A DNA stretch of 64,000 nucleotides from Gemmatimonadales bacterium (GCA_038227135.1 JBBRQC010000006.1:20896-84895), one strand, 5' to 3'. Numbered from the stretch's first letter, positions 42,820-62,200 are shown. Notes: generated by a model from the letters alone, not told the origin. Numbers and translations are program-made.

Positions 42820-43774
42820 AGTGCTGGTCACCGGCGGAGCCGGTTTCATCGGATCGCACGTGGCCGATCTCTTCCTGGCAGAAGGGTGGGATGTCACGAT
42901 CGTCGACGATCTCTCCAGCGGAAAACGAGAAAACGTTCCAGCGGGCGCGAGGCTCCACGAGACCAGCGTCAACTCACCCGAGTTCGTGCGCCTGGTGACG
43001 GAGCAGAAGTTCGATGTCATCACACACCTGGCGGCGCAGATCGACGTCCGAAAGAGTGTCGCGGACCCCATTGCCGACGCGAGCATCAACATTATCGGGA
43101 CGCTGAATCTCATGGAGGCGCTGCGTGCGGCGGGTCCTGGCACGCGGGTGGTCTTTACATCTACGGGCGGAGTTCTTTACGGTGACTTCAATACGCCGCC
43201 GAACTACGAGACCTATCCGAAAGACCCGGAATCGCCGTACGCGATCGGGAAGCTGAGCGCGGAGTATTATCTGGCGTATTATGGCCGCGTTCACAACATG
43301 GATTCCGCGGCGCTCCGCTTCGGGAACGTGTATGGTCCCAGGCAGGATCCTCACGGCGAGGCCGGCGTGGTTGCCATTTTCTGTGGACGCATTCTCTCCA
43401 ACCGTCCACTCACCATATTCGGCGACGGACGCCAAACACGCGACTACGTTTACGTCGGCGACGTCGCTCGTGCAATGTACCTCGCCGGCACCGAGCAACT
43501 TCCCCCAAGGGAGCGTCTCGATGCGCGCGGATTCAACATCGGAACGGGCAAGGGAACGAGCGTAATCGAGATCGCTACACTTCTGCAGGAAGTCGCCGGA
43601 ACCAAGGTGGCCATCGAATTTGCGCCGCACCGGCCTGGTGAACAGCAGGAATCATTCGTCAACGCCGACAAGGCGCGCGAGCTGCTGGGGTGGATCCCGC
43701 AAGTGACGCTGGCCGAGGGACTCGCGACGACATTCGCGTGGTTCAAGCAACGAGCGACCGGAGCGCGGGTTTGA
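42812..43774 (+). CDS. NAD-dependent nucleoside-diphosphate-sugar epimerase/dehydratase (GalE-like)
   Basis: ATG 42812 gives MPKVLVTGGAGFIGSHV. A YAIGKLSAE catalytic YxxxK is present. It overlaps the hemA 3' end by 8 nt. Confidence 0.88.
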   Translation: MPKVLVTGGAGFIGSHVADLFLAEGWDVTIVDDLSSGKRENVPAGARLHETSVNSPEFVRLVTEQKFDVITHLAAQIDVRKSVADPIADASINIIGTLNLMEALRAAGPGTRVVFTSTGGVLYGDFNTPPNYETYPKDPESPYAIGKLSAEYYLAYYGRVHNMDSAALRFGNVYGPRQDPHGEAGVVAIFCGRILSNRPLTIFGDGRQTRDYVYVGDVARAMYLAGTEQLPPRERLDARGFNIGTGKGTSVIEIATLLQEVAGTKVAIEFAPHRPGEQQESFVNADKARELLGWIPQVTLAEGLATTFAWFKQRATGARV

Positions 43775-43818
43775 CGCCGCTGCTGCTACTGCTCGCGCAG
43801 GCGATACCGAGCTCGCCG

Positions 43819-44484
43819 ATGGAGCTCATCACGAGCTCGACCGGCGCCACAAAATTCGTTCTCGGCATTCTGGTGGTGCTGTCCCTGCTCAGCTGGGGGA
43901 TCATTTTCACCAAGTGGTACGAGCTGCGTCGCGCCGGCCGAATCACCTATTCATTCGCGCACGAGTTCGCGGGCGCGCGAAGCGTCGAAGGCGCCGCGCA
44001 GATGGCGCGTCGAACCAATGGGCCACCGGCGACGATCATGGAGCGCGCGATGCGCTTTATCGAGGAGACCACCCCGGCGCTTTCCGGAACGTCGGAGCGT
44101 GCGGCCCGATTCAGCGGCTCGCAGGTCGAAGCGCTCAAGCTGGTTCTCGACGCTGAAACAACGTCGGAGCGGGACCGATTGAGTCGCTGGGTTCCCTCGC
44201 TCGCCACCATCGGCTCCGTCAGCCCGCTCATCGGACTGCTCGGCACCGTCCTCGGCGTCATCGACGCCTTCGTCGGAATAGCCGCCAAGGGTTCTGGAAA
44301 CATCGGAGCCGTCGCGCCCGGCGTCGCCGAAGCGCTGATCGCGACGGCCGCAGCCCTGAGCGTCGCGATTCCGGCGGTGTTTGCCTACAACATTTTCGCG
44401 TCCCGCCTCAACAAGATCGAGGGACAGCTGGAAAGTTTCGGCTCGGAGCTGATCGCGCTGCTCGTGCGGGAGGGCAGGATCTAG
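43819..44484 (+). CDS. tolQ: MotA/TolQ/ExbB proton-channel protein (TolQ by context)
   Basis: It has three TM segments and the conserved GLLGTVLGVIDAF and APGVAEALIATA motifs. TTG 43771 is an alternative start. Confidence 0.88.
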   Translation: MELITSSTGATKFVLGILVVLSLLSWGIIFTKWYELRRAGRITYSFAHEFAGARSVEGAAQMARRTNGPPATIMERAMRFIEETTPALSGTSERAARFSGSQVEALKLVLDAETTSERDRLSRWVPSLATIGSVSPLIGLLGTVLGVIDAFVGIAAKGSGNIGAVAPGVAEALIATAAALSVAIPAVFAYNIFASRLNKIEGQLESFGSELIALLVREGRI

Positions 44485-44900
44485 TGGCCCGTCGTGGGCG
44501 TGGCCGCGACCGGCTGGTGCTCAACGCCGAGATCAACGTCGTGAGTCTCATCGACGTTATGATGCTGCTCATGATCATCTTCATGATCACCGCGCCGATG
44601 ATGCAGGGAGGCGTGGACATAACGCTGCCGAAGGCGCAGTCGCGGCCGCTGGAGTCCAAGAGCGGGCTGACGGTGACGATCGATCGCAGCGGCGCCATTT
44701 TTGTCGACGAGGCGCGGCTCACCCTGGCGCAATTCACATCCAGCTTCAAGGCCCTCGCCAATCGACGCGGAAGCGGCGGTGTCTATCTGCGAGCCGACGA
44801 CGGCGTTCCCTATGGCTCGGTCGTGAAGGTTCTCGCGATAATGCGAGCGAGCGGCGTAGGCGACATAGGTCTCGTCGCCGAGCCGACCGAGGTGAAGTAG
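44484..44900 (+). CDS. tolR: ExbD/TolR biopolymer transport protein (TolR by context)
   Basis: It has AEINVVSLIDVMMLLMIIFMITAP and the VVKVLAIMRASG C-terminal domain. Confidence 0.88.
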   Translation: MARRGRGRDRLVLNAEINVVSLIDVMMLLMIIFMITAPMMQGGVDITLPKAQSRPLESKSGLTVTIDRSGAIFVDEARLTLAQFTSSFKALANRRGSGGVYLRADDGVPYGSVVKVLAIMRASGVGDIGLVAEPTEVK

Positions 44901-44904
44901 AGAG

Positions 44905-45645
44905 ATGGCGAGGGGAGCGGGTGGATCACGACACATTGCCCCCTTTACGCTCTCGGCGATACTTCACGCGGCAGTAGCTACGCTCCTGTTCAACACGCTC
45001 AAAGAGCGCAAGCCGGTCGCTCTCCCACCCATGTATCGCGTCAATATCGTCGCGGCTCCGCCCGGGGAGAGAGCGATCGGAGAGGTGCAGAGCGGCCAAA
45101 CCAAAGCCACGACGCCTGTTACGCAGCCCAGTGCAGCGCAGTCAACGCTCAAGGAAATGCCGCTTCCCAAGGCGAAACCCGCGCAAAAGACTCCCGCGCG
45201 TGCGACGCCGAGTGTGCCGAAGCCCGCAACGAAGTCGGGTGCAGCCGAGGCGAAAGCGGTTCCCCAGCCTAAAACCGAGGCGCCCAAGGCGGGCGGCGGC
45301 CCAGTTGGCGGAAAGGGAACCGATGTCGCAACGGTGCGCACTGATGGGATCGAGTTCGCGTTTCCAGGGTACCTCAACAACATAGTTAGACAGATTGCTC
45401 TCAATTTCAGACCAAGAAACACCAACGCCGGTCTCAAAGCGGAGATCAGGTTTCTGATACATCGCGACGGCTCTGTTTCAGACCTCACGTTCATCAGGCG
45501 CTCGGGCAATTTTTCATTCGACCTGGAAGCGCAGGGCGCAGTGGAAGCGGCGTCGAGCGCGCGGCGGTTTGGCCCGCTCCCCGATGGTTTTGCCGATGAT
45601 GTGCTTCCAGTCGTATTCAGCTTTGACCCCGAATTCCTGAAATGA
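44905..45645 (+). CDS. TonB/TolA-type energy transducer (TolA position)
   Basis: It has an N-terminal TM anchor, a Pro/Lys/Ala-rich spacer and a TonB_C-like domain (IHRDGSVSDLTFIRRSGNFSFDLEAQGAVE). Confidence 0.78.
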   Translation: MARGAGGSRHIAPFTLSAILHAAVATLLFNTLKERKPVALPPMYRVNIVAAPPGERAIGEVQSGQTKATTPVTQPSAAQSTLKEMPLPKAKPAQKTPARATPSVPKPATKSGAAEAKAVPQPKTEAPKAGGGPVGGKGTDVATVRTDGIEFAFPGYLNNIVRQIALNFRPRNTNAGLKAEIRFLIHRDGSVSDLTFIRRSGNFSFDLEAQGAVEAASSARRFGPLPDGFADDVLPVVFSFDPEFLK

Positions 45646-46967
45646 CCAAAGTGCGCTGCATTTGTCTGATCACGATGTTGTACTGCATCGCAACGCCCAG
45701 CCTCGCCCGCGCGCAGGACACGACGACGACGCCCGGGGTGCGGCTCGGCCTGAATTACGCGGCCGGATCCAAGCCGGGCGTGATCGTCCTGCCGGTTGCG
45801 GATGACTACGGCGACGACTCGCTGCGCACGATCGTTCAGCGCGATCTCGACTACGGGGATCGGTTGAACGTGATCGCGCTGGACCAGGAAACGCTTCAGG
45901 GACTGGTCCCTCCCCTCGGTGGCAAGATCAATTTCCCTCTGGTGGCGAAGTTCGGCGCGGCGCTGCTGATACGAATGACGCAGACCACTCAGGGACTCCA
46001 CGTAGCCGCCTACGATGTCGCGAGGGGCCAGCTCCTTCAGTCGGAGCAGTTCCTGTTCGACCGGCGTGACAGAGACTGGCGATTCGGCCTTCATGGCGTC
46101 TCGGATCGGATCGAGCAGTGGGTCTTCGGCAAACGCGGAATAGCGCAGACCCGGATCGCCTACGTGAACAACGGCCTGCTCCGGATCATCGACAGCGACG
46201 GTGCTTTGACGCGCTCCATCACCACCGGAAAAGGCGCGCTCTCCCCTGCGTGGTCCCCGACCGGAGAGTCGGTTGTCTACACCGTGCTCGGCAACGCAGG
46301 CACCCAGGTCGAAGAGCTGGACGTGCGCTCCGGCCGGACGCGCCGAATCAGCCAGATCCAAGCGGGCTTGAACATCACCCCGGTCTACCAGCCCGGCGGC
46401 AACGCAATTCTTTACGCGCAGGGGACGGGCAACGGAACCGATCTGGTTCTGGCGAGCCTCGATTCCAGCGGAGCTCGAAAACTGACGGTGGGCAAGGGAA
46501 CCGACAACACCTCGCCTTCCTACAGTCCGGACGGGCGTCAGGTCGCGTTCATATCGGGCAAATCGGGACAGCCCCAGGTTTATATTATGGATGCCGACGG
46601 CTCGAACATTCAGCTGCTGACGCCTTATACAGCGGGCACGCGCAGCTATCGCGCGAGCCCGGACTGGTCACCCGATGGCAATGCGGTTGCCTACGAGCAG
46701 CAGAACGGGAACTTCCAGGTGTGGATGATCGATTTGCGGGACCGCATCCCGAAACAGCTCACGAGCGAGGGGGAAAACGAAGATCCGTCCTGGGCGCCTG
46801 ACGGACGGCACCTTGTCTTCACCTCGACTCGCTCGGGTGAAAAGCAGTTGTGGATTCTCGACACCGAGAGCGGCCGCGCGCGGCAGCTCACGCACAACAA
46901 TGGAGCGAGACTGGCGGCGTGGTCGCCGATACTCGCCAATCCGGAAGTGGGAACCTATTCGCAATGA
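45642..46967 (+). CDS. tolB: Tol-Pal system beta-propeller protein TolB
   Basis: It has repeated PD40 blades (SPAWSPTGESVVY, PSYSPDGRQVAF...QVYIMDADGSN, SPDWSPDGNAVAY, PSWAPDGRHLVFTS). Confidence 0.92.
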   Translation: MTKVRCICLITMLYCIATPSLARAQDTTTTPGVRLGLNYAAGSKPGVIVLPVADDYGDDSLRTIVQRDLDYGDRLNVIALDQETLQGLVPPLGGKINFPLVAKFGAALLIRMTQTTQGLHVAAYDVARGQLLQSEQFLFDRRDRDWRFGLHGVSDRIEQWVFGKRGIAQTRIAYVNNGLLRIIDSDGALTRSITTGKGALSPAWSPTGESVVYTVLGNAGTQVEELDVRSGRTRRISQIQAGLNITPVYQPGGNAILYAQGTGNGTDLVLASLDSSGARKLTVGKGTDNTSPSYSPDGRQVAFISGKSGQPQVYIMDADGSNIQLLTPYTAGTRSYRASPDWSPDGNAVAYEQQNGNFQVWMIDLRDRIPKQLTSEGENEDPSWAPDGRHLVFTSTRSGEKQLWILDTESGRARQLTHNNGARLAAWSPILANPEVGTYSQ

Positions 46968-47740
46968 TCAAACCCGCACCTCTTCTTCTTGCAGTCCTCG
47001 CGCTCTCCGCCAACGCCTGCTTCTTCGCGACGAAGCAGGATATCGACAGGCTGCAAGCTGACATCGTTGGCACGCGCGTGAGCTCGAGCGCGGCCGACTC
47101 GGTCCAGCGCGCGCAGCTGATCGAGGTCAGCCGCTCCGTGAGGACGCTGAACGACTCGATCTCGGCACTCAGCAGGCGAATGGCAGCGATGCGTACTGCG
47201 TCGGAGAGCGATATGACTGCGATGAGGGAAAACATCTCGCAGCTCCAGGACCTGAGTGGCCAAAGCGAGCAGCGGTTGCGCGACATGCGCGCTGCCATGG
47301 AGGAGAAACGGCAGCAGCAGGCCGCGGCGGCGACTCCCGATTCCTCGGGCGCACCGGCGACTGGTCCCGGACCGCTCCAGCTTCTACAGGCCGGACGCGA
47401 TCAGCTGCTCAAGGGCGGCAACGCTTCCGCGCGGAGCGCGTTCAACGAGCTCATTACGAAGTATCCGACCTCCGAGTACGTACCTGAAGCAATGTTCTAT
47501 ACCGCCCAGGCCTACGCGGCCGAGCGGAATTTTACGGCCGCGGATGCGGAGTACACGTCGCTGATCGCCAAGTATCCCTCTTCGCCGCGCGTTCCCACGG
47601 CGATGTACAAGCGGGCGCTCCAGATGCAGGCGTCGAAGCGGAACTCCGAAGCCAGGAAGCTCTACCAGGACATCATCAAGCGCTATCCGCGCTCTGACGA
47701 GGCCGCACTCGCCGACGAGCGCCTCCAGTCGATGCGGTAG
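46964..47740 (+). CDS. cpoB: Tol-Pal system protein CpoB/YbgF (coiled coil plus TPR)
   Basis: Its ATG overlaps the tolB stop (ATGA). It has a signal or lipoprotein-like N-terminus (LAVLALSANAC), a coiled-coil segment, and the YbgF TPR signature (ITKYPTSEYVPEAMFY...IAKYPSSPRVPTAMYK...IKRYPRSDEA). Confidence 0.85.
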   Translation: MIKPAPLLLAVLALSANACFFATKQDIDRLQADIVGTRVSSSAADSVQRAQLIEVSRSVRTLNDSISALSRRMAAMRTASESDMTAMRENISQLQDLSGQSEQRLRDMRAAMEEKRQQQAAAATPDSSGAPATGPGPLQLLQAGRDQLLKGGNASARSAFNELITKYPTSEYVPEAMFYTAQAYAAERNFTAADAEYTSLIAKYPSSPRVPTAMYKRALQMQASKRNSEARKLYQDIIKRYPRSDEAALADERLQSMR

Positions 47741-47754
47741 CAAAGGGCCGTCGC

Positions 47755-50700
47755 ATGAGCGCAGCTCCTGGCCAAGAGATGCCGTTCCTGGATCATCTGG
47801 AGGAGCTGCGCAAGCGTCTTTTCTGGATCGCCGGGGCAGTCGTTCTTGGCGTGGTCGTGGCCTTTGCCCTCCTGTCGAAGCTGGACATCATAAGGCTTCT
47901 CGAGCGGCCGATCCTCCCTCTGCTGCACGGGCAGAAGCTGATCTACACGCACCCGGGAACGTCCTTCCACATTCTCCTCAACGCGTCGCTGGTGCTGGGG
48001 ATCATCCTCGCTTCGCCCGTAATCGTTGCTCAGCTGTGGGGCTTTCTGGCGCCGGCGCTCTACTCCCACGAGAAGCGAGTGGTGGTTCCGGTCGTTCTGT
48101 CCATGGCGTCGCTCTTTCTTGCCGGAGTGTCGCTCAGCTACTTCGTCGTCCTGCCGCTGACGCTCCAGTTTCTGATGAGCATCGAGTCGACCGCGCTGAC
48201 GCCGATGATCTCGGCAACGGAGTACTTCGACTTTGCGATCAGCATGTGTCTCGCGTTCGGACTCGTTTTCGAGGTGCCGATTGCCATCCTGGCGCTGACT
48301 GCGCTGGGGATCATCACGCCGCAGTTCCTCTCGAAGTACAGAAGACACGCGGTAGTCGTCTGCCTCGTCGCGGCGGCGTTCATCACTCCCGGGGCCGATC
48401 CCTATTCGCTGTTTGCGCTGGCAATTCCGCTTTACGTGCTTTACGAGGTGAGCGTCTTCGTGGCGATCATCGCCTACCGCAAGCGGCAGAAGCGGCGGGA
48501 CCGTCTCGAGGCGGAGGAGCTGGCGTCGGAGGCAGCCCCGAAGCCGGCCGCCGTACCGCGATCGCTGTACATGCTCGTCGTTGCTGCTCTGCTCGTGCCG
48601 GGCGCGCGCGTCTTCGGACAGGTGCCTCGTGCACCAGATTCTCGGAGCCAGACTTCCAGACAGCGCCCGGATTCAGCCCGCCAGGATTCGACCGCTGATT
48701 CGACGCGCACCAGGCAGCTGATCAAGTGGCTGGAAGCCGACTCGGTGATGAAGGTGCTGATGGCACGGCCCGGATACAGCGCCACGCGCTACCAGGCCGA
48801 CGAGGTCGTGTTCGACGCGCGCACGCGGTTGCTACACCTGAAGGGGAAGAAAGCGGGCGTCCAGCGCGATGAAACGGTACTCGTCGGTGACAGCATCGTC
48901 TACAGCGATTCCACAAAGATCATCGTCGCGCGCGGTGACACCGTAATTCTGCGAGACCCATCCCGACAGGCGGCTGACGTGGTAGCACGCGGGCGGATGG
49001 CATACAACGTCGCGCTCCACCGAGGGTGTGTCACCAACATCAGCACATCGGTCGAGTCGGGACAGCATTGGTTCGTCGAAGGAGAGGACGCGTGCTTCGT
49101 CAGCGACACGACGCGTTTCGCGGCCGACACCACGCGCGGGCGGGAGACAGCCTTCTACGCGCGCAATGCGTCGATCACCAGCTGTGACGACTCGATACCC
49201 GACTACCACTTCCAGGCGAAGGAAGTGAAGATGGTCTCCAAGAACATCATGGTAGCGCGTCCCGCCGTGCTCTACATAGGCGAGGTGCCGATCATGTGGC
49301 TGCCGTTCATCTTCCAGGACATGCGGTCGGGAAGGCGCAGCGGAGTGCTGACGCCGAGGTTCGGGCTCAGCGAGCTTTTCCGCAACAGCCCCACTTACCG
49401 GCGGCACGTCGAGAACGTCGGCTACTATTTCGCCCTCAGCGATTACATGGATGCGGAGTTTGCGCTCGATTGGCGGAGCGGCGCCCGGTCCAGCATTGGC
49501 GATCCCGGCTGGGTGCGGCTGAACGGGGAAATGCAGTACAGGTGGCTCGATCGATTCCTGAGCGGGCGCATTGGTTTGTTTCGTCATTCTCTGAACGACG
49601 GAACCAGGAACACTGGCGTCAGCTGGCAGCACAGCCAGAGCTTCTCGGACGCGACGCATTTCAGCGCCAACGTCAACTACGTCACCAATACCTTCGTCCA
49701 GAGAACGACGAGCTTCAATCCAGCGACCGTTCTCGCGAGCATCACGTCTACGGCGAGCTACGACACCAAAATAGGGCCTGCCGCGCTCAGCCTCGGCGGA
49801 AGCCGGTCGCAGCATCCCGGTCGGGGCGAAGTCAACCAGACTTTCCCGACCTTCAGCATCAGCTCTCCAACGATTCAGGTAACCAGGTTTCTCGATTGGA
49901 CGCCGACGTTCAACTTCCAGACTCACCAGGATCTCCATATCGACGAGACCGGCGAGTTCGCTTACCAGTTCTTCACCAACGCCAGCGGAGCACCGGATAG
50001 CCTCAGGCGGAAAAGGAACGCCAGGAATACCACGTCGAGCTTCAGCACACCGATCAAGCTCGGGGGCTTTGCGTGGACGAACTCATTTTCGCTGAACTCC
50101 ACCGAAGTGGACGAGCCGCTCACAATCGTCGTCGTAGATCCGGAGGACTCGTCGAAAAAAGTAAGTCGGGTGTTCGCGAAGTCGTTCCCGACGAATCTCG
50201 ACTGGCAGACCAACTTTGGCCTGCCCGGTCTTCTGCACGGTAGTCTGAATCTGTCGCCGTCCGTTTCGCTGGAGAACGTGGACGGCTCGAACGGGTTCTG
50301 GGTCCGTTCACACCTGAGCGGCGGACAGTTCGTCCACCAGTCGAAGCGTCCCTCGATGAATCTCTCGGCGTCTCCGACGCTGTTCGCGCTTTTCCCGGGA
50401 TTCGGACCCGTGAGCCGGTTCCGCCACTCCATCACACCAGTCATCTCGTTCTCCTATGCGCCCTCCGGGAATCTCAGCACCGAGTTTCTCCGGGCCACGA
50501 ACAGGAGCCGACAGAGCTTCCTCGGATCCCTGGCGCGCAACCAGATCAGCCTCGGCTTGTCCCATGTACTGGAAGCGAAGATGAAGAGCACTGACACGAG
50601 CAGCACGGCCGAGCAGAAGAAGATCAAGATTCTGTCGATGAATTTCTCGTCGATCGCCTACGACATCGAGCGGGCGAGGAAAACCCACCGGTCCGGGATC

Positions 50701-51519
50701 ACCACGCCAAACCTGTCCACGGATTTCTATTCGGATCTGATCCCCGGGTTTAGGGCGAACGTCGGGTATTCGCTCTATCAGGGCGACGTCATGAGCGACA
50801 GCGCGCGGTTCAAGCCGTTCCGCGAGACGATAAACGCGTCGTTCAACGTCAACGCCCAGTCGGGAATCTTCGGCGTGCTGACGCGGGTGTTTGGAAAGGC
50901 GGTCCCCGAGAAGAATCCCGAGCTGGATAAGCCGGGCCAGAGTGGGGACGATGCCCTGGCGAGACGCGTCGCGACGACGCCCGTAGCCGGGATTACGCAG
51001 CGCGACCGCCAGTATTCGGTTCCAACCACGCAAGGCTGGGAGGCGAGCTTCACGTATTCATCCAGCCGCCAGCGGCCGCCGACAGGCCACGGAGTCGTGA
51101 TCGAGCAGGACATCACCACTCAATGCGCGCCGCTGCAACCCAATCCCATCGTCTATCAGCAGTGTCTCGAGCAGGCAGCGGCGACCGCGAGCAGTGCGGT
51201 GCCGGTGACGAACGGAATCGTCGGCGCGCCGTTCGTCCGCACGCCGCCGCGTGACAATATCCAGTCGCAGATGACCTTCCACCTCACGCCGAAATGGTCG
51301 GGGAGCTGGGGAACGAATTACGACTTTACCGCGAAGAAATTCGGGAGCCAGCAGGTGTCTCTCCAAAGGGACCTGCACGATTGGCGAGCGATTTTCGCCT
51401 TCACGCAGGCTCCGAACGGAAACTTCGCGTTCAGCTTCTTCATTGCCCTGAAAGCCGAACCTGACCTAAAATTCAACTATGACAAACAGACCTACCGGCC
51501 AGTAAGATCCCGACCGTGA
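47755..51519 (+). CDS. tatC: TatC (twin-arginine translocase subunit) continuous in frame with an LptD/OstA-like outer-membrane protein domain (1254 codons)
   Basis: Residues 1 to about 245 are a full TatC (MPFLDHLEELRKRLFW, six hydrophobic helices). There is no stop. A K/R-rich linker follows, then a signal-like segment ([19 protein letters not shown]), an OstA-like N-domain and a large beta-rich region (RRSGVLTPRFGLSE...). Confidence 0.75.
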   Translation: MSAAPGQEMPFLDHLEELRKRLFWIAGAVVLGVVVAFALLSKLDIIRLLERPILPLLHGQKLIYTHPGTSFHILLNASLVLGIILASPVIVAQLWGFLAPALYSHEKRVVVPVVLSMASLFLAGVSLSYFVVLPLTLQFLMSIESTALTPMISATEYFDFAISMCLAFGLVFEVPIAILALTALGIITPQFLSKYRRHAVVVCLVAAAFITPGADPYSLFALAIPLYVLYEVSVFVAIIAYRKRQKRRDRLEAEELASEAAPKPAAVPRSLYMLVVAALLVPGARVFGQVPRAPDSRSQTSRQRPDSARQDSTADSTRTRQLIKWLEADSVMKVLMARPGYSATRYQADEVVFDARTRLLHLKGKKAGVQRDETVLVGDSIVYSDSTKIIVARGDTVILRDPSRQAADVVARGRMAYNVALHRGCVTNISTSVESGQHWFVEGEDACFVSDTTRFAADTTRGRETAFYARNASITSCDDSIPDYHFQAKEVKMVSKNIMVARPAVLYIGEVPIMWLPFIFQDMRSGRRSGVLTPRFGLSELFRNSPTYRRHVENVGYYFALSDYMDAEFALDWRSGARSSIGDPGWVRLNGEMQYRWLDRFLSGRIGLFRHSLNDGTRNTGVSWQHSQSFSDATHFSANVNYVTNTFVQRTTSFNPATVLASITSTASYDTKIGPAALSLGGSRSQHPGRGEVNQTFPTFSISSPTIQVTRFLDWTPTFNFQTHQDLHIDETGEFAYQFFTNASGAPDSLRRKRNARNTTSSFSTPIKLGGFAWTNSFSLNSTEVDEPLTIVVVDPEDSSKKVSRVFAKSFPTNLDWQTNFGLPGLLHGSLNLSPSVSLENVDGSNGFWVRSHLSGGQFVHQSKRPSMNLSASPTLFALFPGFGPVSRFRHSITPVISFSYAPSGNLSTEFLRATNRSRQSFLGSLARNQISLGLSHVLEAKMKSTDTSSTAEQKKIKILSMNFSSIAYDIERARKTHRSGITTPNLSTDFYSDLIPGFRANVGYSLYQGDVMSDSARFKPFRETINASFNVNAQSGIFGVLTRVFGKAVPEKNPELDKPGQSGDDALARRVATTPVAGITQRDRQYSVPTTQGWEASFTYSSSRQRPPTGHGVVIEQDITTQCAPLQPNPIVYQQCLEQAAATASSAVPVTNGIVGAPFVRTPPRDNIQSQMTFHLTPKWSGSWGTNYDFTAKKFGSQQVSLQRDLHDWRAIFAFTQAPNGNFAFSFFIALKAEPDLKFNYDKQTYRPVRSRP

Positions 51520-52619
51520 CGCAGCGGCTGAACATCACGAATGGCGACAGCGCCGCCGGTACTCTCAGTGAGGCCGGCATCGTCGGCAAGGTCGTAGCGT
51601 GGCGTGACGTGCTGCATGAGGGACCGGTGGACGCGTCGTTACCCCTCAACGCGCTGAGCAAGCAGAGGGCGCGCTTCATCTCGGAGCGCGGGTGGGGAGA
51701 TTTCGCGCACGTGAGTGGCAACTTCGCCGAGCGAGACAAGGTCATCCAGCACCTGGACTACTTCGATGAAGTAGTGCTCTGGTTCGAGGACGACCTCTAC
51801 GATCAGCTCCAGCTGATCCAGGTTCTCGACCTCTTCTCGCGCGGCTCATCGCGCCGGAAGAGGGTCACGCTGATACAGGTTGACGGATATATCCCACCAT
51901 TGTCGGCCGCGGAGCTCCTGAAGCTGGACGCTGCGCGAATGCCGGTGACCGCGGAGCAGTACGCGCTGGCGCAGAAAGCGTGGAAGGCGTTCGGATCTGA
52001 CGACCCATCGAAAATCCTGCGCGCGCTCGACGGAAACCTTTCGCGACTCCCTTATCTTGCCTTCGCGCTTTGGCGACATCTCGAGGAATTTCCTTCGGTT
52101 GCAAACGGCCTCTCGCGATCGGAGCGGGAGATAATTACGGCAATAGAAGAAGGCCACACGACGCCGGTAGCAGCGTTTCTCGAAGTGGCGACCAAGCAGG
52201 AGAGCATTTTTCTCGGCGACATAATCTTCTATTCGTACCTGGAGCGGCTGAGCGGAGAAAGGAATCCTCTCCTGACGTGGGCCAGCGGCGAGGCTGTGGT
52301 TTCGCCGACAGCGGAGAACTCACGCGAGTTCGTTAAGAGAGAGCTGAAAGTCACGCTCCTCGGACGAGAAGTGCTCGCCGGGAGAAAGGACTGGCAGAAC
52401 ATCAACACGGAGTCCCGCTGGCTGGGCGGGGTCGAAATCGAGCCGGGCGCCAAGGGATGGAGGTGGGATCCCGATCAACGCGTTCTCATTCGTGCGCGCC
52501 CTCCGGCGGCACCCCGTAAATCGGTCAGGAAGGCGACGGCGGCGCGCAAACGTCCCATTGCGAAAAAGCGATTGACTTCTTCGCCCGTCAAAAAGCGCCC
52601 CGCACAAAAGAGAAAATGA
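51516..52619 (+). CDS. DUF1835-like protein with a Lys/Arg-rich C-terminal tail
   Basis: Its GTG overlaps the upstream stop (GTGA). The N-terminus LNITNGDSAAGTL...VVAWRDVLHEGPV...VVLWFEDDLYDQLQLIQVL resembles DUF1835 as I remember it. The tail is RKSVRKATAARKRPIAKKRLTSSPVKKRPAQKRK. Confidence 0.6.
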   Translation: MTQRLNITNGDSAAGTLSEAGIVGKVVAWRDVLHEGPVDASLPLNALSKQRARFISERGWGDFAHVSGNFAERDKVIQHLDYFDEVVLWFEDDLYDQLQLIQVLDLFSRGSSRRKRVTLIQVDGYIPPLSAAELLKLDAARMPVTAEQYALAQKAWKAFGSDDPSKILRALDGNLSRLPYLAFALWRHLEEFPSVANGLSRSEREIITAIEEGHTTPVAAFLEVATKQESIFLGDIIFYSYLERLSGERNPLLTWASGEAVVSPTAENSREFVKRELKVTLLGREVLAGRKDWQNINTESRWLGGVEIEPGAKGWRWDPDQRVLIRARPPAAPRKSVRKATAARKRPIAKKRLTSSPVKKRPAQKRK

Positions 52620-52650: not shown

Positions 52651-54167
52651 GTGACCGCAAACCTCCTCATCGACGGTGATTCACTCACTGTCGATCAAGC
52701 CTACGCTGTCGCTGTCGAGCGACTTCGCGTCGGTATCGCGCCCAAAGCCCGGGCGCGGATGTTACGCACGCGCGCTGTCGTGGACGCCATCGTCCAGAAA
52801 AACGACGTCGTCTACGGTGTGACTACCGGCTTCGGCAAGCTCTCCGACGTCGCCATTCCGCCCAACAGGCTGGCCGAGCTGCAGATCAATCTCGTGCGGA
52901 GCCACGCGTCAGGCGTGGGCGACCGCCTGCCCGAGCCCGAAGTGCGCGCGATGATGCTCTTGCGCGCCAACGTCATCGCCAAGGGTTACTCGGGCGCTCG
53001 CCCGGAGCTGGTGGATCTGCTGCTCGACTTGCTCAATGCCGACGTGTATCCGCCGATCCCTGAGCAGGGAAGCGTCGGCGCCAGCGGAGATTTAGCGCCT
53101 CTCGCGCACCTCGCGCTTTCCCTTATTGGCGAAGGAACCCTGATCAAGGGCGGGAAGGAAGAGCCCGCGCTGAAGGTGCTCAGGCAGATTGGAACGAAGC
53201 CGGTGGTGCTCGCGCCAAAGGAGGGAATCACTCTCATCAATGGCACGCAGGCGCACACGGCGGTGGCACTCATCGCCGTCGTCGGCGCGCGGTCTCTCTG
53301 GCGCACCGCGCACGTCGCCGGCGCGATGTCACTCGAAGGGCTGCTCGGTACTCCCGTCGCGTTCGACCAGCGCCTACACGCCGCCCGTGGACAGAAGGGG
53401 CAGGTACGCTCGGCGGCCCTGCTGCGCGATCTTCTCGCCGACAGCGAGCTGCGTGAATCACACCGTCACGGCGATCCGCGGGTTCAGGACCCGTATTCGC
53501 TGCGGTGCATGCCCCAGGTGCACGGCCCGGTGCTCGACGCCCTCGACTGGATCGGTGAGGCGGTCTCTCGCGAGCTGAATGCCGCAACCGATAATCCGCT
53601 CGTATTCGAGAACGGCGAGACGCTGAGCGGCGGGAACTTCCACGGACTGATCATAGCGATGGCGCTCGACTTCCTGGCGATCGTGCTTACGCATCTGGCG
53701 ACGATGGCCGAGAGGAGAATCGACCGGCTCGTGCATCCCGATCTCAACCAGGGGCTGCCGGCATTCCTTTCTCCGGATGCGGGTGTGAATTCCGGTTTCA
53801 TGATGGCCCAGGTGACGGCCGCCGCGCTCGCGAGCGAATGCAAGGTGCTCTCGCACCCGGCCAGCGTGGACACGATCCCCACCGACGGCAGCAAGGAAGA
53901 CGTCGTTCCGATGGCGATGGGCGCGGCATGGAAGGCGCGCCGCGTTCTTCACAATCTGGAGAACATCCTGGCCATCGAGCTGATGTGTGGAGCGCAGGCA
54001 ATCGACTTCAGGGCGCCACTCAAACCCGGACGCGGTGTTCGAACAGCGCACGAGCGTGTGCGCGAGATTGTGCCGCGTCTCGAGGCTGATCGCGTGCTGA
54101 GCGGGGACATATCGGCTCTCAGGGCGGCCGTCTCGGATCAGCGGTTCGCCGACATCGGAGCCGTGAC

Positions 54168-54171
<4 letters not shown>
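52651..54171 (+). CDS. hutH: histidine ammonia-lyase
   Basis: It has the MIO-forming motif [15 protein letters not shown] and [10 protein letters not shown], and it lies next to hutU. Confidence 0.95.
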
Positions 54172-61927: not shown

Positions 61928-62200
61928 ATGTTTGGCAATCTGGGTTTTCCCGAGCTGCTGATCATCATGATCGTGATTCTCTTGCTCTTCGGAGCCAAGC
62001 GGATCCCCGAGATCGCAGGCTCGATGGGGAAGGGAATCAGGGAATTCAAGAAAAACATCAACGACGCGACGCGCGAAGTGACCGCGGAGACGCGCGCACC
62101 GGGCGAGCCGGAGTCCCAGTCGCGGTTGACGGCGGCCGAGCTCGAACAGCGGCGAGCGGTTGACGAGGCTGAGAGGCCCGCTCCCAAGAGGCTGTTGTAG
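61928..62200 (+). CDS. tatA: twin-arginine translocase subunit TatA/E
   Basis: MFGNLGFPELLIIMIVILLLFGAKRIPEIAGSMGKGIREFKK is the canonical TatA TM plus amphipathic helix. Confidence 0.93.
   Translation: MFGNLGFPELLIIMIVILLLFGAKRIPEIAGSMGKGIREFKKNINDATREVTAETRAPGEPESQSRLTAAELEQRRAVDEAERPAPKRLL

What the first reader, a model, noticed from the sequence alone, without database searches (positions are those of the whole stretch)
47755..51519. One uninterrupted ORF joins a complete TatC to an LptD/OstA-like outer-membrane protein
- **What is seen:** The first ~245 residues are a full TatC with six hydrophobic helices and a cytoplasmic C-terminus.
- **Junction:** The frame continues with no stop through a K/R-rich stretch (YRKRQKRRDRLEAEE) and a signal-peptide-like segment ([18 protein letters not shown]|QVP).
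- **C-terminal part:** About 980 residues follow that read like an OstA-N plus LptD-type protein (RRSGVLTPRFGLSE, long S/T/N/Y-rich beta-type sequence).
- **Topology:** TatC ends inside the cell, so the extra hydrophobic segment would be correctly oriented as an internal signal sequence. A polyprotein cleaved by signal peptidase is therefore topologically possible.
- **Alternatives:** One is a nested start at ATG 48571, but I see no SD in front of it, and a peptide starting there has no positively charged n-region. The other is a lost stop codon or an assembly frameshift.
- **Novelty:** I know of no described fusion between an inner-membrane translocase and an outer-membrane assembly barrel.
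- **Context:** tatA is encoded 10 kb away (61928). The ORF sits directly after the tol-cpoB envelope cluster.
Basis: partly seen in the sequence, partly recalled or inferred. Interest (0 to 1): 0.72.

Follow-up and report, generated by a model that had tools for sequence, protein, structure and literature searches.

The report
Natural TatC–LptD fusion gene
In this soil bacterium (phylum Gemmatimonadota) the gene for an inner-membrane protein exporter (TatC) is fused in frame to the gene for the outer-membrane lipopolysaccharide inserter (LptD), the same fusion has arisen repeatedly in the phylum, and an internal signal peptide probably lets the cell cut the product into two proteins.

Summary
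Window 47755-51519 (+) is one 1254-codon ORF.
- **Domains:** residues 9-247 are a complete TatC. Residues 289-1254 are an LptD-type protein: Pfam LptD_2, and the top 37 Foldseek PDB hits are all LptD.
- **Not an artefact:** 29 protein clusters and 10 GTDB species genomes from independent assemblies carry the same fused frame at 62-91% identity. More distant fused lineages exist at 31-38%.
- **Ancestral state:** in most Gemmatimonadales, tatC and lptD are separate but overlap by 4 nt ((A/G)TGA), with a Shine-Dalgarno-like (ribosome-binding) element inside the tatC tail.
- **Recurrence:** fusions fall in at least 5-7 separate clades with different junction peptides.
- **Signal peptide kept:** all 36 distinct fused junctions keep an internal signal peptide like that of unfused orthologues. 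It has an Arg n-region and 19 residues to the site, with A or G at -1, a small or aliphatic residue at -3, and Gln at +1.
- **Internal start lost:** the ancestral lptD start codon and Shine-Dalgarno element have decayed. Four of 12 fused loci have no usable internal start.

The best reading is a polyprotein inserted co-translationally and cut by signal peptidase I into TatC (with an extra C-terminal segment) and mature LptD. Cleavage is inferred, not shown. I found no published description. This is a new variant of a known kind.

The parts
47755..51519 (+). Whole fused ORF, 1254 codons plus stop
   Evidence: both Pfam domains lie in one frame
47755..48474 (+). TatC moiety (residues 1-240) with six transmembrane helices; TM6 ends at about residue 240
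   Evidence: Pfam TatC E 4e-64; TIGR00945 above cut-off; full-length alignment to PDB 4b4a; hydropathy
48475..48558 (+). Cytoplasmic linker (residues 241-268): K/R-rich, then acidic, then A/P-rich. It is the former TatC C-terminal tail. Its length varies among fused relatives, always by in-frame indels.
   Evidence: homologous to the unfused tail '...RKRxKR...SA(R/G)APA*'
48553..48555 (+). Codon 267 (GTA, Val), the position of the ancestral lptD start codon. In group-A relatives it is GTG, GTC, ATC or GTA.
48559..48618 (+). Internal signal-peptide-like segment (residues 269-288): invariant Arg269, h-region [12 protein letters not shown], c-region PGARVFG
   Evidence: The junction codons 266-272 (AVPRSLY), which end in the first four residues of this segment, show 78 synonymous against 12 non-synonymous pairwise differences.
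48571..48573 (+). It is not conserved and has no Shine-Dalgarno-like element.
48616..48621 (+). Predicted signal peptidase I site Gly288|Gln289 (-3 Val, -1 Gly, +1 Gln)
   Evidence: Aligned with the A-x-A|Q-V-R site of unfused orthologues. Gln289 is invariant. -1 is A or G in 36 of 36 fused junctions.
48619..48759 (+). R/D/S/T-rich, probably disordered N-terminal tail of the mature LptD-like part (residues 289-335)
   Evidence: AF2 pLDDT 26-41; conserved in composition in fused and unfused forms
48802..49320 (+). N-terminal all-beta domain (about residues 350-522), equivalent to the LptD beta-jellyroll
   Evidence: AF2 strands; weak NCBIfam LptD hits at residues 387-574; phmmer hit to 7omm LptD at residues 372-647; Foldseek alignments to full-length LptD
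49402..51450 (+). Large C-terminal beta-barrel (about residues 550-1232)
   Evidence: Pfam LptD_2 at residues 500-971; AF2 pLDDT 80-90 over mature residues 300-740; top 37 Foldseek PDB hits are LptD
43690..47740 (+). Upstream tolQ, tolR, tolA-like, tolB and cpoB/ybgF-like genes on the same strand, with the same order in relatives
51516..52619 (+). Downstream 367-aa gene (weak DUF1835 hit, no signal peptide) whose start overlaps the fusion's stop by 4 nt. A gene occupies the same position in relatives.
61928..62200 (+). tatA (TatA/B/E family), the expected partner of TatC

Best explanation
This is a genuine, evolutionarily maintained gene fusion.

**Origin (inferred from comparison).** In the ancestor, tatC and lptD were separate genes whose stop and start overlapped by 4 nt ((A/G)TGA). 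This suggests translational coupling. A net +1-nt change at that overlap joined the two frames.

**Proposed biogenesis (inferred, not shown).**
1. The ribosome makes one 1254-residue chain.
2. The six TatC helices insert co-translationally into the inner membrane, and TatC ends in the cytoplasm.
3. The Arg-containing linker stays in the cytoplasm.
4. The former LptD signal peptide (residues 269-288) inserts N-in/C-out through SecYEG as a seventh segment.
5. The roughly 966-residue LptD part is threaded into the periplasm.
6. Signal peptidase I cuts after Gly288.

This would release mature LptD, starting at Gln289, for BAM-dependent assembly in the outer membrane. It would leave a functional TatC carrying a roughly 48-residue C-terminal extension.

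**Possible benefit (inferred).** The fusion fixes 1:1 synthesis. It also guarantees that a very large, aggregation-prone outer-membrane precursor is made on a ribosome already docked at the translocon. That would be an extreme form of the coupling already present in unfused relatives.
For: - **ORF and domains:**
- **Independent assemblies:** the fused frame is found in 29 clusters (90% identity level) at 62-91% identity from ENA, JGI and NCBI. It is also found in 10 GTDB species genomes. Single fused proteins occur on 6 and 13 separate contigs, one of them 2.98 Mb long. More distant fused representatives exist at 31-38% identity.
- **In-frame linker indels:** all linker indels among fused members keep the frame.
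- **Purifying selection at the junction:** codons 266-272 show 78 synonymous against 12 non-synonymous pairwise differences.
- **Ancestral arrangement:** unfused relatives have tatC ending in '(G/R)APA*' with a 4-nt overlap onto the lptD start in 24 of 32 loci with a callable lptD start. The upstream Shine-Dalgarno-like element has a median anti-SD duplex energy of -6.25 kcal/mol.
- **Origin by a net +1 nt:** the group-A junction 'APA-[V/I]-PRSLY' compared with unfused 'APA*' plus 'V-S/T-R-R-L' implies one extra nucleotide.
- **Recurrence:** fused forms sit in at least 5-7 separate clades with distinct junctions.
- **Signal peptide retained:** in 36 of 36 distinct fused junctions, -1 is A or G and -3 is L, V, A, G, I, T or S. 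The distance from the last n-region charge to the site has a median of 19, the same as in 124 unfused orthologues. Hydropathy is 2.2 against 2.05. Arg269 and Gln289 are invariant.
- **Internal start lost:** L004 and L042 have no in-frame ATG, GTG or TTG between TM6 and the site. L041 and L072 have only useless ones. In group A, 5 of 7 loci lost the ancestral start codon and 6 of 7 lost the Shine-Dalgarno-like element.
Against: - No experimental or proteomic evidence for cleavage exists. SignalP-type predictors were not available here.
- Conservation of the -3/-1/+1 residues could partly reflect recent ancestry within each clade.
- One fused relative (L034) still has both GTG and a strong Shine-Dalgarno-like element at the ancestral start. 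Internal initiation may therefore persist in some lineages.
- I do not know whether these genomes carry a second tatC or lptD.
- The independent-origin count rests on neighbour-joining trees without support values.
- The AF2 model of the junction has low confidence (pLDDT 54).
- The proposed selective advantage is speculation.
Confidence: 0.7

Rival explanations
1. The fusion is real but is not cleaved. The hydrophobic segment acts as a seventh transmembrane anchor. One polypeptide then links the inner-membrane TatC to the outer-membrane LptD barrel through the roughly 45-residue disordered R/D/S/T-rich stretch and the beta-jellyroll.
For: - A disordered stretch of about 45 residues follows the hydrophobic segment.
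- LptD's N-terminal domain normally faces the periplasmic Lpt bridge (established knowledge of the Lpt pathway).
- No direct evidence for cleavage exists.
Against: - The hydrophobic core is only 11-13 residues long, followed by a Pro/Gly/Asn break and a classical c-region.
- Residues -1 (A or G) and -3 are kept in 36 of 36 junctions from several independent fusions. They are indistinguishable from those of cleavable signal peptides in unfused orthologues.
- The disordered tail is equally present in unfused forms, so it did not evolve as a tether.
Confidence: 0.1
2. LptD is still made mainly as a separate protein from an internal start (ATG 48571 or a non-canonical codon). The read-through TatC-LptD chain is a tolerated by-product.
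For: - The window has an in-frame ATG 16 codons before the predicted site.
- L034 keeps the ancestral GTG with a strong Shine-Dalgarno-like element at -9.5 kcal/mol.
Against: - ATG 48571 has no Shine-Dalgarno-like element (+0.3 kcal/mol). A peptide starting there has no charged n-region.
- That codon is GTG, GGG, CTN or ATC in relatives.
- L004 and L042 have no canonical in-frame start anywhere in the linker or signal peptide. L041 and L072 have none that is usable.
- With no stop codon, every TatC translation must continue into LptD anyway.
Confidence: 0.1
3. The fusion is a sequencing or assembly error, or a recent pseudogenising frameshift.
For: The fusion differs from the ancestral arrangement by a net single-nucleotide frame change at an overlap.
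Against: - The same frame is found in dozens of independent assemblies from different sources and technologies.
- Divergence reaches down to 62% identity within related clades and 31-38% in others.
- All linker indels are in frame, and the junction is under purifying selection.
- Both halves score as intact family members.
Confidence: 0.02
4. The linkage reflects a direct functional dependence. TatC would act in cis on the attached signal peptide, through its insertase activity or Tat-dependent export, rather than Sec.
For: - The tatC-lptD coupling is conserved across Gemmatimonadales and some Longimicrobiales.
- Many unfused orthologues have 'T-R-R-L-x-L' in the n-region.
- TatC has signal-peptide insertase activity according to the review PMC13186574.
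Against: - The twin arginine is not conserved. The window and all of group A have a single Arg. Several unfused orthologues also have only one basic residue.
- The signal peptides are short, at about 22-25 residues, and hydrophobic like Sec signals.
- A 966-residue beta-barrel precursor must stay unfolded, which is the opposite of a typical Tat substrate (established knowledge).
Confidence: 0.05

Closest known systems
Unfused tatC-lptD gene pair of other Gemmatimonadota (for example loci L001, L026, L027)
   Same: - Orthologous genes in the same neighbourhood (tolQRAB-cpoB upstream, a 337-379-aa gene and hutH downstream).
- The same signal peptide and A-x-A|Q-V-R site.
- Probably already translationally coupled through a 4-nt overlap.
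   Different: Here the stop/start overlap is replaced by sense codons (a net +1 nt). The two products are therefore made as one chain, and the lptD start and Shine-Dalgarno-like element have decayed.
Bradyrhizobium japonicum FbcH, the cytochrome b-c1 precursor (Thony-Meyer et al. 1991, PNAS 88:5001). Cited from my own knowledge; not retrievable with the paper tools.
   Same: One bacterial gene encodes a polytopic inner-membrane protein followed by an internal signal peptide and a second, exported protein. Signal peptidase cleavage yields two proteins.
   Different: - In FbcH both products stay in one inner-membrane complex.
- Here the two products belong to unrelated machines in different membranes.
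- Cleavage has not been demonstrated here.
Haloarchaeal TatC2 (TatCt), two TatC domains fused through extra transmembrane helices
   Same: It is a natural TatC fusion. It shows that TatC tolerates additional helices and large extensions (review PMC13186574).
   Different: That fusion partner is another TatC and stays uncleaved in the same membrane. No signal-peptidase site or outer-membrane partner is involved.
Canonical proteobacterial LptD (for example PDB 4q35, 5iv9, 9kn3)
   Same: A predicted N-terminal beta-jellyroll plus a very large barrel. All top structural matches are LptD. The partial LptD N-terminal sequence similarity is weak.
   Different: - About 10-13% identity.
- It belongs to the Pfam LptD_2 family and gives no hit to the canonical OstA_N or LptD Pfam models.
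- It is about 200 residues longer and has a disordered R/D/S/T-rich N-tail.
- No lptE-like gene is adjacent.
- A role in LPS transport is assumed from homology only.
Viral polyproteins processed by host signal peptidase (for example HCV core-E1, PMC5402940, from the abstract listed)
   Same: An internal signal peptide at the C-terminus of the upstream product targets the downstream product. After cleavage it remains attached to the upstream product.
   Different: That is a eukaryotic ER system in viruses. Here the setting is a cellular housekeeping locus in bacteria.

Membership tests
TatC (PF00902 / TIGR00945) | Profile match above the curated cut-off over the whole domain | tested here: met
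   Pfam scores 216.6 bits against a cut-off of 25.1, covering profile positions 1-208 of 208. TIGR00945 scores 197.6 against 132.7.
TatC (PF00902 / TIGR00945) | Six transmembrane helices with both termini in the cytoplasm | tested here: met
   Residues 9-247 align without large gaps to all of Aquifex TatC 4b4a. Hydropathy shows six segments. The topology itself is inferred from homology.
TatC (PF00902 / TIGR00945) | A TatA/B-family partner encoded in the genome | tested here: met
   tatA at 61928-62200, Pfam TatA_B_E E 1.5e-19
TatC (PF00902 / TIGR00945) | Export of twin-arginine substrates | not testable with these tools
   Requires genetics or biochemistry.
LptD-type outer-membrane protein | Match to an LptD family profile above the curated cut-off | tested here: met
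   Pfam LptD_2 (PF19838) scores 127 bits against a cut-off of 22.5 at residues 500-971.
LptD-type outer-membrane protein | Match to the canonical LptD equivalog models or to OstA_N / LptD (OstA_C) Pfam models | tested here: not met
   NCBIfam LptD models score only 33.8 and 28.8 bits against cut-offs of 944 and 683, on the N-terminal part only. The Pfam scan at E <= 0.1 returned only TatC and LptD_2, so neither canonical model (OstA_N, LptD/OstA_C) gave a hit. It is therefore an LptD_2-family homologue, not a canonical equivalog.
LptD-type outer-membrane protein | Fold: periplasmic beta-jellyroll followed by a very large beta-barrel | tested here: met
   The AF2 model has pLDDT 65 overall and 80-90 in the barrel. 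Foldseek PDB ranks 1-37 are all LptD (E 1e-17 to 3e-7), followed by TonB-dependent receptors at 1e-4. TM-scores are only 0.3-0.47, so the strand count was not verified.
LptD-type outer-membrane protein | LptE-like plug partner and LPS insertion activity | not tested
   The adjacent downstream gene is a cytoplasmic-looking DUF1835 protein without a signal peptide. The rest of the genome is not available.
Signal-peptidase-processed bacterial polyprotein (FbcH-like) | The upstream moiety ends in the cytoplasm and is followed by an n-h-c signal with small residues at -3 and -1 | tested here: met
   Residues 269-288 read [20 protein letters not shown]|Q. In 36 of 36 fused junctions, -1 is A or G.
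Signal-peptidase-processed bacterial polyprotein (FbcH-like) | No independent translation start for the downstream moiety | tested here: inconclusive
   Four of 12 fused loci lack any usable in-frame start, and the ancestral start and Shine-Dalgarno-like element are mostly lost. However, the window has a non-conserved ATG without such an element, and L034 keeps GTG plus a strong one.
Signal-peptidase-processed bacterial polyprotein (FbcH-like) | Demonstrated cleavage into two polypeptides | not testable with these tools
   Needs proteomics or immunoblotting.
Tat (twin-arginine) signal peptide on LptD | Conserved S/T-R-R-x-F-L-K motif, long n-region, weakly hydrophobic h-region | tested here: not met
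   There is a single Arg in the window and in all of group A. The twin arginine is absent from several unfused orthologues. The signals are short and hydrophobic.

The most novel reading that the evidence does not exclude
The repeated fusion and the widespread stop/start coupling of tatC and lptD would reflect a physical or functional partnership rather than mere co-expression. In one version, a fraction of the protein stays uncleaved. It would then form a single polypeptide bridging the inner-membrane Tat translocase and the outer-membrane LPS translocon. In another version, the signal peptide left on TatC as a seventh helix sits next to TM5/TM6, where TatA and TatB bind, and so tunes Tat activity to outer-membrane biogenesis.
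Probability: 0.1. Interest if true: 0.85.

Novelty: new variant of a known kind. Interest (0 to 1): 0.62.

Why it matters
- **Unusual pairing:** I know of no described case, and found none in the literature searches, in which an inner-membrane translocase subunit and an outer-membrane assembly barrel are encoded as one polypeptide.
- **Suggests selection, not accident:** the fusion arose several times in one phylum. The signal-peptidase site is always kept, while the internal start decays.
- **Predicted internal signal peptide:** if cleavage is confirmed, this would be a natural bacterial example of an internal Sec signal peptide working after a polytopic membrane protein.
- **Testable idea:** synthesis of a very large outer-membrane precursor may benefit from being tied to a ribosome already at the membrane. 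The coupled gene pairs may be an intermediate step towards fusion.
- **Annotation problem:** public annotation is misleading. These roughly 1250-aa proteins are named simply 'TatC' in NCBI and JGI records, which hides the LptD orthologue of these genomes.

Tried and rejected
- **'Separate' close relatives:** P0028, P0030 and P0031 (922-924 aa, 85-88% identity) looked like unfused close relatives. For P0028 the contig (L003) starts 107 nt before the called start, and the frame is open to the contig edge, so it is a contig-end artefact. P0030 and P0031 begin at the same internal Met on similarly short contigs and are probably the same.
- **Twin-arginine signal on LptD:** rejected because the RR is not conserved.
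- **Linkage in other phyla:** tatC is followed by a different, uncharacterised ORF, not lptD, in Calditrichota and Marinimicrobia loci and in one Longimicrobiales chromosome (L076, L078, L079, L080). The linkage is therefore specific to Gemmatimonadota and not universal even there.
- **Downstream gene as LptE-like partner:** rejected. It has no signal peptide or lipobox and only a weak DUF1835 hit.
- **Literature:** searches for TatC+LptD+fusion, Gemmatimonadetes+TatC and Gemmatimonad+LptD found no description of the fusion. Searches for the FbcH precedent returned nothing usable, and one call failed on a term-length limit.
- **AF2 model of residues 1-310:** it gave pLDDT 54. Only the secondary structure could be read: the TM6 helix runs to about residue 260, a short helix covers 269-279, and coil follows. 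I did not search it against structure libraries.
- **Cluster names:** the look-up for the deep fused representatives returned no taxonomic names.
- **Frameshifted gene calls:** P0153 and P0235 look like frameshifted or garbage gene calls and were ignored. P0178 and P0202 have out-of-frame-looking C-terminal tails, but their intact junctions were kept as partial fused forms and counted among the 36.

Full report
**Observation.** Window 47755-51519 (+) is a single ORF of 1254 codons starting with ATG.
- Pfam finds TatC at residues 13-225 (E 4e-64) and LptD_2 (PF19838) at residues 500-971 (E 1e-36) in the same frame.
- NCBIfam's tatC equivalog TIGR00945 scores above its cut-off (197.6 against 132.7). 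Two canonical LptD models hit only weakly, on residues 387-574.
- Against solved structures, residues 9-247 align with the whole of Aquifex TatC (4b4a, E 7e-45). Residues 372-647 align weakly with Neisseria LptD (7omm, E 9e-4).
- A Kyte-Doolittle scan shows the six TatC hydrophobic segments and a seventh, weaker one at about residues 270-285.
ATG 48571 is codon 273.
- The neighbours are tolQ, tolR, a tolA-like gene, tolB and a cpoB/ybgF-like TPR gene upstream. Downstream lie a DUF1835-like gene that overlaps the stop by 4 nt, then hutH. tatA is at 61928-62200.
- The window has 62% G+C.

**The C-terminal part is an LptD-type protein.** I modelled residues 289-1254 with AlphaFold2 on an alignment of 76 unfused orthologues.
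- Mean pLDDT is 65 and pTM 0.53, with pLDDT 80-90 in the barrel.
- The first 61 residues are disordered. An all-beta N-terminal domain follows, then a long series of barrel strands.
- Foldseek against the PDB returns LptD chains as ranks 1-37 (E 1e-17 to 3e-7). The alignments span the full-length proteins. TonB-dependent receptors appear only at E about 1e-4.
- TM-scores are low (0.3-0.47), so I do not claim a strand count.
- It is a member of the LptD_2 family, not a canonical equivalog.

**The fusion is not an artefact.** A search of the 5.8-billion-protein collection found 29 clusters (at 90% identity) of full-length proteins of 1240-1257 aa. All carry both Pfam domains, share 62-91% identity with the query, and come from ENA, JGI and NCBI. 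Every entry in that list that carries an organism name is a Gemmatimonadota MAG.
- Three apparently separate close relatives (922-924 aa) begin at the same internal Met on short contigs. For P0028 the contig begins 107 nt before the called start, so it is a gene call truncated by a contig end.
- A scan of one genome per GTDB species gave 77 loci. I classified them by frame and stop position.
  - Ten carry the fused frame across the junction: L004, L005, L006, L008, L034, L041, L042, L052, L058 and L072.
  - About 35 have separate genes.
- P0022 is encoded on 6 contigs, one of them 2.98 Mb long. P0020 is encoded on 13 contigs. Both sit in the same tol-cpoB ... hutH neighbourhood.
- All linker length differences among fused proteins are in frame.

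**The ancestral state suggests a translationally coupled pair.** Of the 32 unfused loci where a long lptD ORF could be called, 24 show the tatC stop overlapping the lptD start by 4 nt ((A/G)TGA). In most Gemmatimonadales, TatC ends in a conserved '(G/R)APA*'.
- The G-rich codons of that tail form a Shine-Dalgarno-like (ribosome-binding) element. Its predicted duplex with the anti-SD sequence has a median of -6.25 kcal/mol, and 21 of 28 loci are at or below -5.
- The adjacency extends to some Longimicrobiales at 27-28% identity (L068, L070).
- It does not extend to one other Longimicrobiales chromosome, nor to Calditrichota or Marinimicrobia.

**How the fusion arose.** In group A (the window's clade) the junction reads '..APA-[V/I]-P-R-S-L-Y..'. 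Unfused relatives read '..APA*' in the tatC frame and 'V-(S/T)-R-R-L..' in the lptD frame.
- Counting nucleotides between the shared GCG codon and the shared Arg codon gives 9 nt in the fused form and 8 nt in the unfused form (L052 against L001).
- This is a net +1 nt change at the overlap. It removes the stop and joins the frames.
- The former start codon is now an ordinary sense codon: GTA in the window, and GTG, GTC or ATC elsewhere.

**The fusion arose repeatedly.** A neighbour-joining tree of the LptD part places the fused proteins in separate clades interleaved with unfused ones.
- Group A is the window plus P0001-P0019, with 'AVPRSLY'.
- Group B is P0021-P0029, with 'PGLRRLM' and a longer acidic linker.
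- P0020 stands alone.
- Group C is L006, L041 and P0032, with 'APAIRRLF'.
- L072 is deep-branching.

An exhaustive HMMER search of 1.84 billion cluster representatives (residues 1-1200 as query) added further fused forms at 31-38% identity.
- Full-length fused forms are P0146, P0148, P0157, P0158, P0169 and P0173. P0151, P0156, P0174, P0178 and P0202 are shorter (927, 804, 617, 771 and 582 aa) but also begin with a TatC part.
- In the second tree they fall in at least three further places, two of them among Longimicrobiales-like sequences.
- In these forms the loop between TatC TM6 and the hydrophobic segment is only 3-10 residues, Arg-rich.
- I count at least 5-7 independent events. This count rests on distance trees without support values. 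P0034, which is unfused, nests inside group A, which shows the limits of those trees.

**The internal segment is a conserved signal peptide.** Unfused orthologues begin with a classical signal peptide ending 'A-x-A|Q-V/I-R'. The fused proteins align to it residue for residue.
- Across 36 distinct fused junctions, -1 is Ala (30) or Gly (6), and -3 is L, V, A, G, I, T or S.
- The distance from the last n-region charge to the site has a median of 19, and h-region hydropathy has a median of 2.2.
- In 124 unfused orthologues the same measures are 19 and 2.05.
- Arg269 and Gln289 are invariant among 28 fused sequences.
- Within group A the junction codons 266-272 show 78 synonymous against 12 non-synonymous pairwise differences, with no second-position changes. 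This stretch is therefore translated in this frame and is under purifying selection. The linker before it is much less constrained (151 against 197).
- A low-confidence AF2 model (pLDDT 54) shows the TM6 helix continuing to about residue 260, a break, an 11-residue helix at 269-279, then coil.

**An independent LptD start is not maintained.** Among 12 fused loci with DNA:
- L004 and L042 have no in-frame ATG, GTG or TTG between TM6 and the predicted site.
- L041 has only an ATG 4 codons before the site.
- L072 has only a TTG 11 codons before the site.
- The window's ATG 48571 has no Shine-Dalgarno-like element (+0.3 kcal/mol). It corresponds to GTG, GGG, CTN or ATC in relatives.
- At the ancestral start position in group A, 5 of 7 loci have lost the start codon and 6 of 7 have lost the Shine-Dalgarno-like element. 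L034 keeps both.
- Because there is no stop codon, every ribosome that translates TatC must continue into LptD.

**Interpretation.** The best-supported model is a polyprotein, at about 0.7 confidence.
1. TatC inserts co-translationally.
2. Its cytoplasmic tail serves as the n-region.
3. The old LptD signal peptide inserts N-in/C-out.
4. The LptD part is translocated by Sec.
5. Signal peptidase I cuts after Gly288.

This releases mature LptD and leaves TatC with a C-terminal extension that includes the spent signal peptide. What is shown is the reality, conservation and recurrence of the fusion, and the retention of signal-peptide features. Insertion, cleavage and any selective advantage are inferred.

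The rivals, with my estimated probabilities, are:
- An uncleaved trans-envelope tether (0.1).
- Dominant internal initiation (0.1).
- TatC-dependent handling in cis (0.05).
- An artefact (0.02).

**Comparison with what is known.**
- The closest mechanistic precedent I know is the Bradyrhizobium FbcH cytochrome b-c1 precursor. I cite it from my own knowledge, because it was not retrievable here.
- Natural TatC fusions are known in haloarchaea as TatC2, a double TatC. Polytopic proteins with internal signal peptides are known for the Streptomyces Rieske protein. Both are mentioned in the review PMC13186574.
- A survey of TatC diversity (PMC3827258) lists Gemmatimonadetes as having tatC and tatA apart. 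It mentions no fusion.
- No paper in the searchable library combines TatC, LptD and fusion in this sense.
- Database records label these roughly 1250-aa proteins simply as TatC.

I classify this as a new variant of a known kind: gene fusion with an internal signal peptide. Interest is moderately high because of the unusual pair of partners and the recurrence.

Noticed in passing
window 51516-52619 (+): A 367-aa ORF whose GTG start overlaps the stop of the TatC-LptD ORF by 4 nt. It has a weak DUF1835 hit (E 2e-6), no signal peptide and a Lys/Arg-rich C-terminal tail. A 337-379-aa gene without a Pfam hit occupies the same position after lptD in L001, L003, L081 and L083. It therefore looks like a conserved third member of the unit, with unknown function. 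It is not LptE-like.
   Followed up: partly
window 45642-47740 (+): The tol cluster runs tolQ-tolR-tolA-like-tolB and then directly into a cpoB/ybgF-like TPR gene. No pal gene lies between them, unlike the proteobacterial tol-pal operon. The same order is seen in L001, L081 and L083.
   Followed up: no
window 48619-48759 (+); also the N-termini of P0034-P0120: The mature LptD-like protein begins with about 45 residues of R/D/S/T-rich low-complexity sequence. Relatives show 'RRDTVRARPDTxRRDST'-like repeats. AF2 predicts it as disordered. It is conserved in composition in fused and unfused forms, and canonical LptD has nothing similar.
   Followed up: no
loci L001, L009, L012-L030 and others (junction of tatC and lptD): In unfused Gemmatimonadales the TatC C-terminus '(G/R)APA*' is strongly conserved. 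This appears to be because its codons double as the Shine-Dalgarno-like element and the stop/start overlap for lptD. It is an example of a protein tail constrained by a downstream gene's translation signals.
   Followed up: partly
P0146, P0148, P0157, P0158, P0169, P0173: Distant fused lineages (31-38% identity) have trimmed the TatC tail to a 3-10-residue Arg-rich loop. TatC TM6 and the signal-peptide h-region would then form a tight helical hairpin. Some lie on contigs of 2-4 Mb, so complete genomes exist to test whether a second tatC or lptD is present.
   Followed up: partly
JALYKM01 (AFD bin13): L027 and L029: One MAG yields two lptD loci. One is complete with tatC upstream. The other starts at a contig end, at query residue 300. 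This could be a paralogue or strain heterogeneity in the bin.
   Followed up: no
window 52651-54171 (+) and downstream: hutH (aromatic amino acid lyase, E 9e-188) follows the envelope genes. In L001 and L081, hutU follows hutH. The histidine-utilisation genes are thus syntenic with the tol-tatC-lptD block across the family.
   Followed up: no
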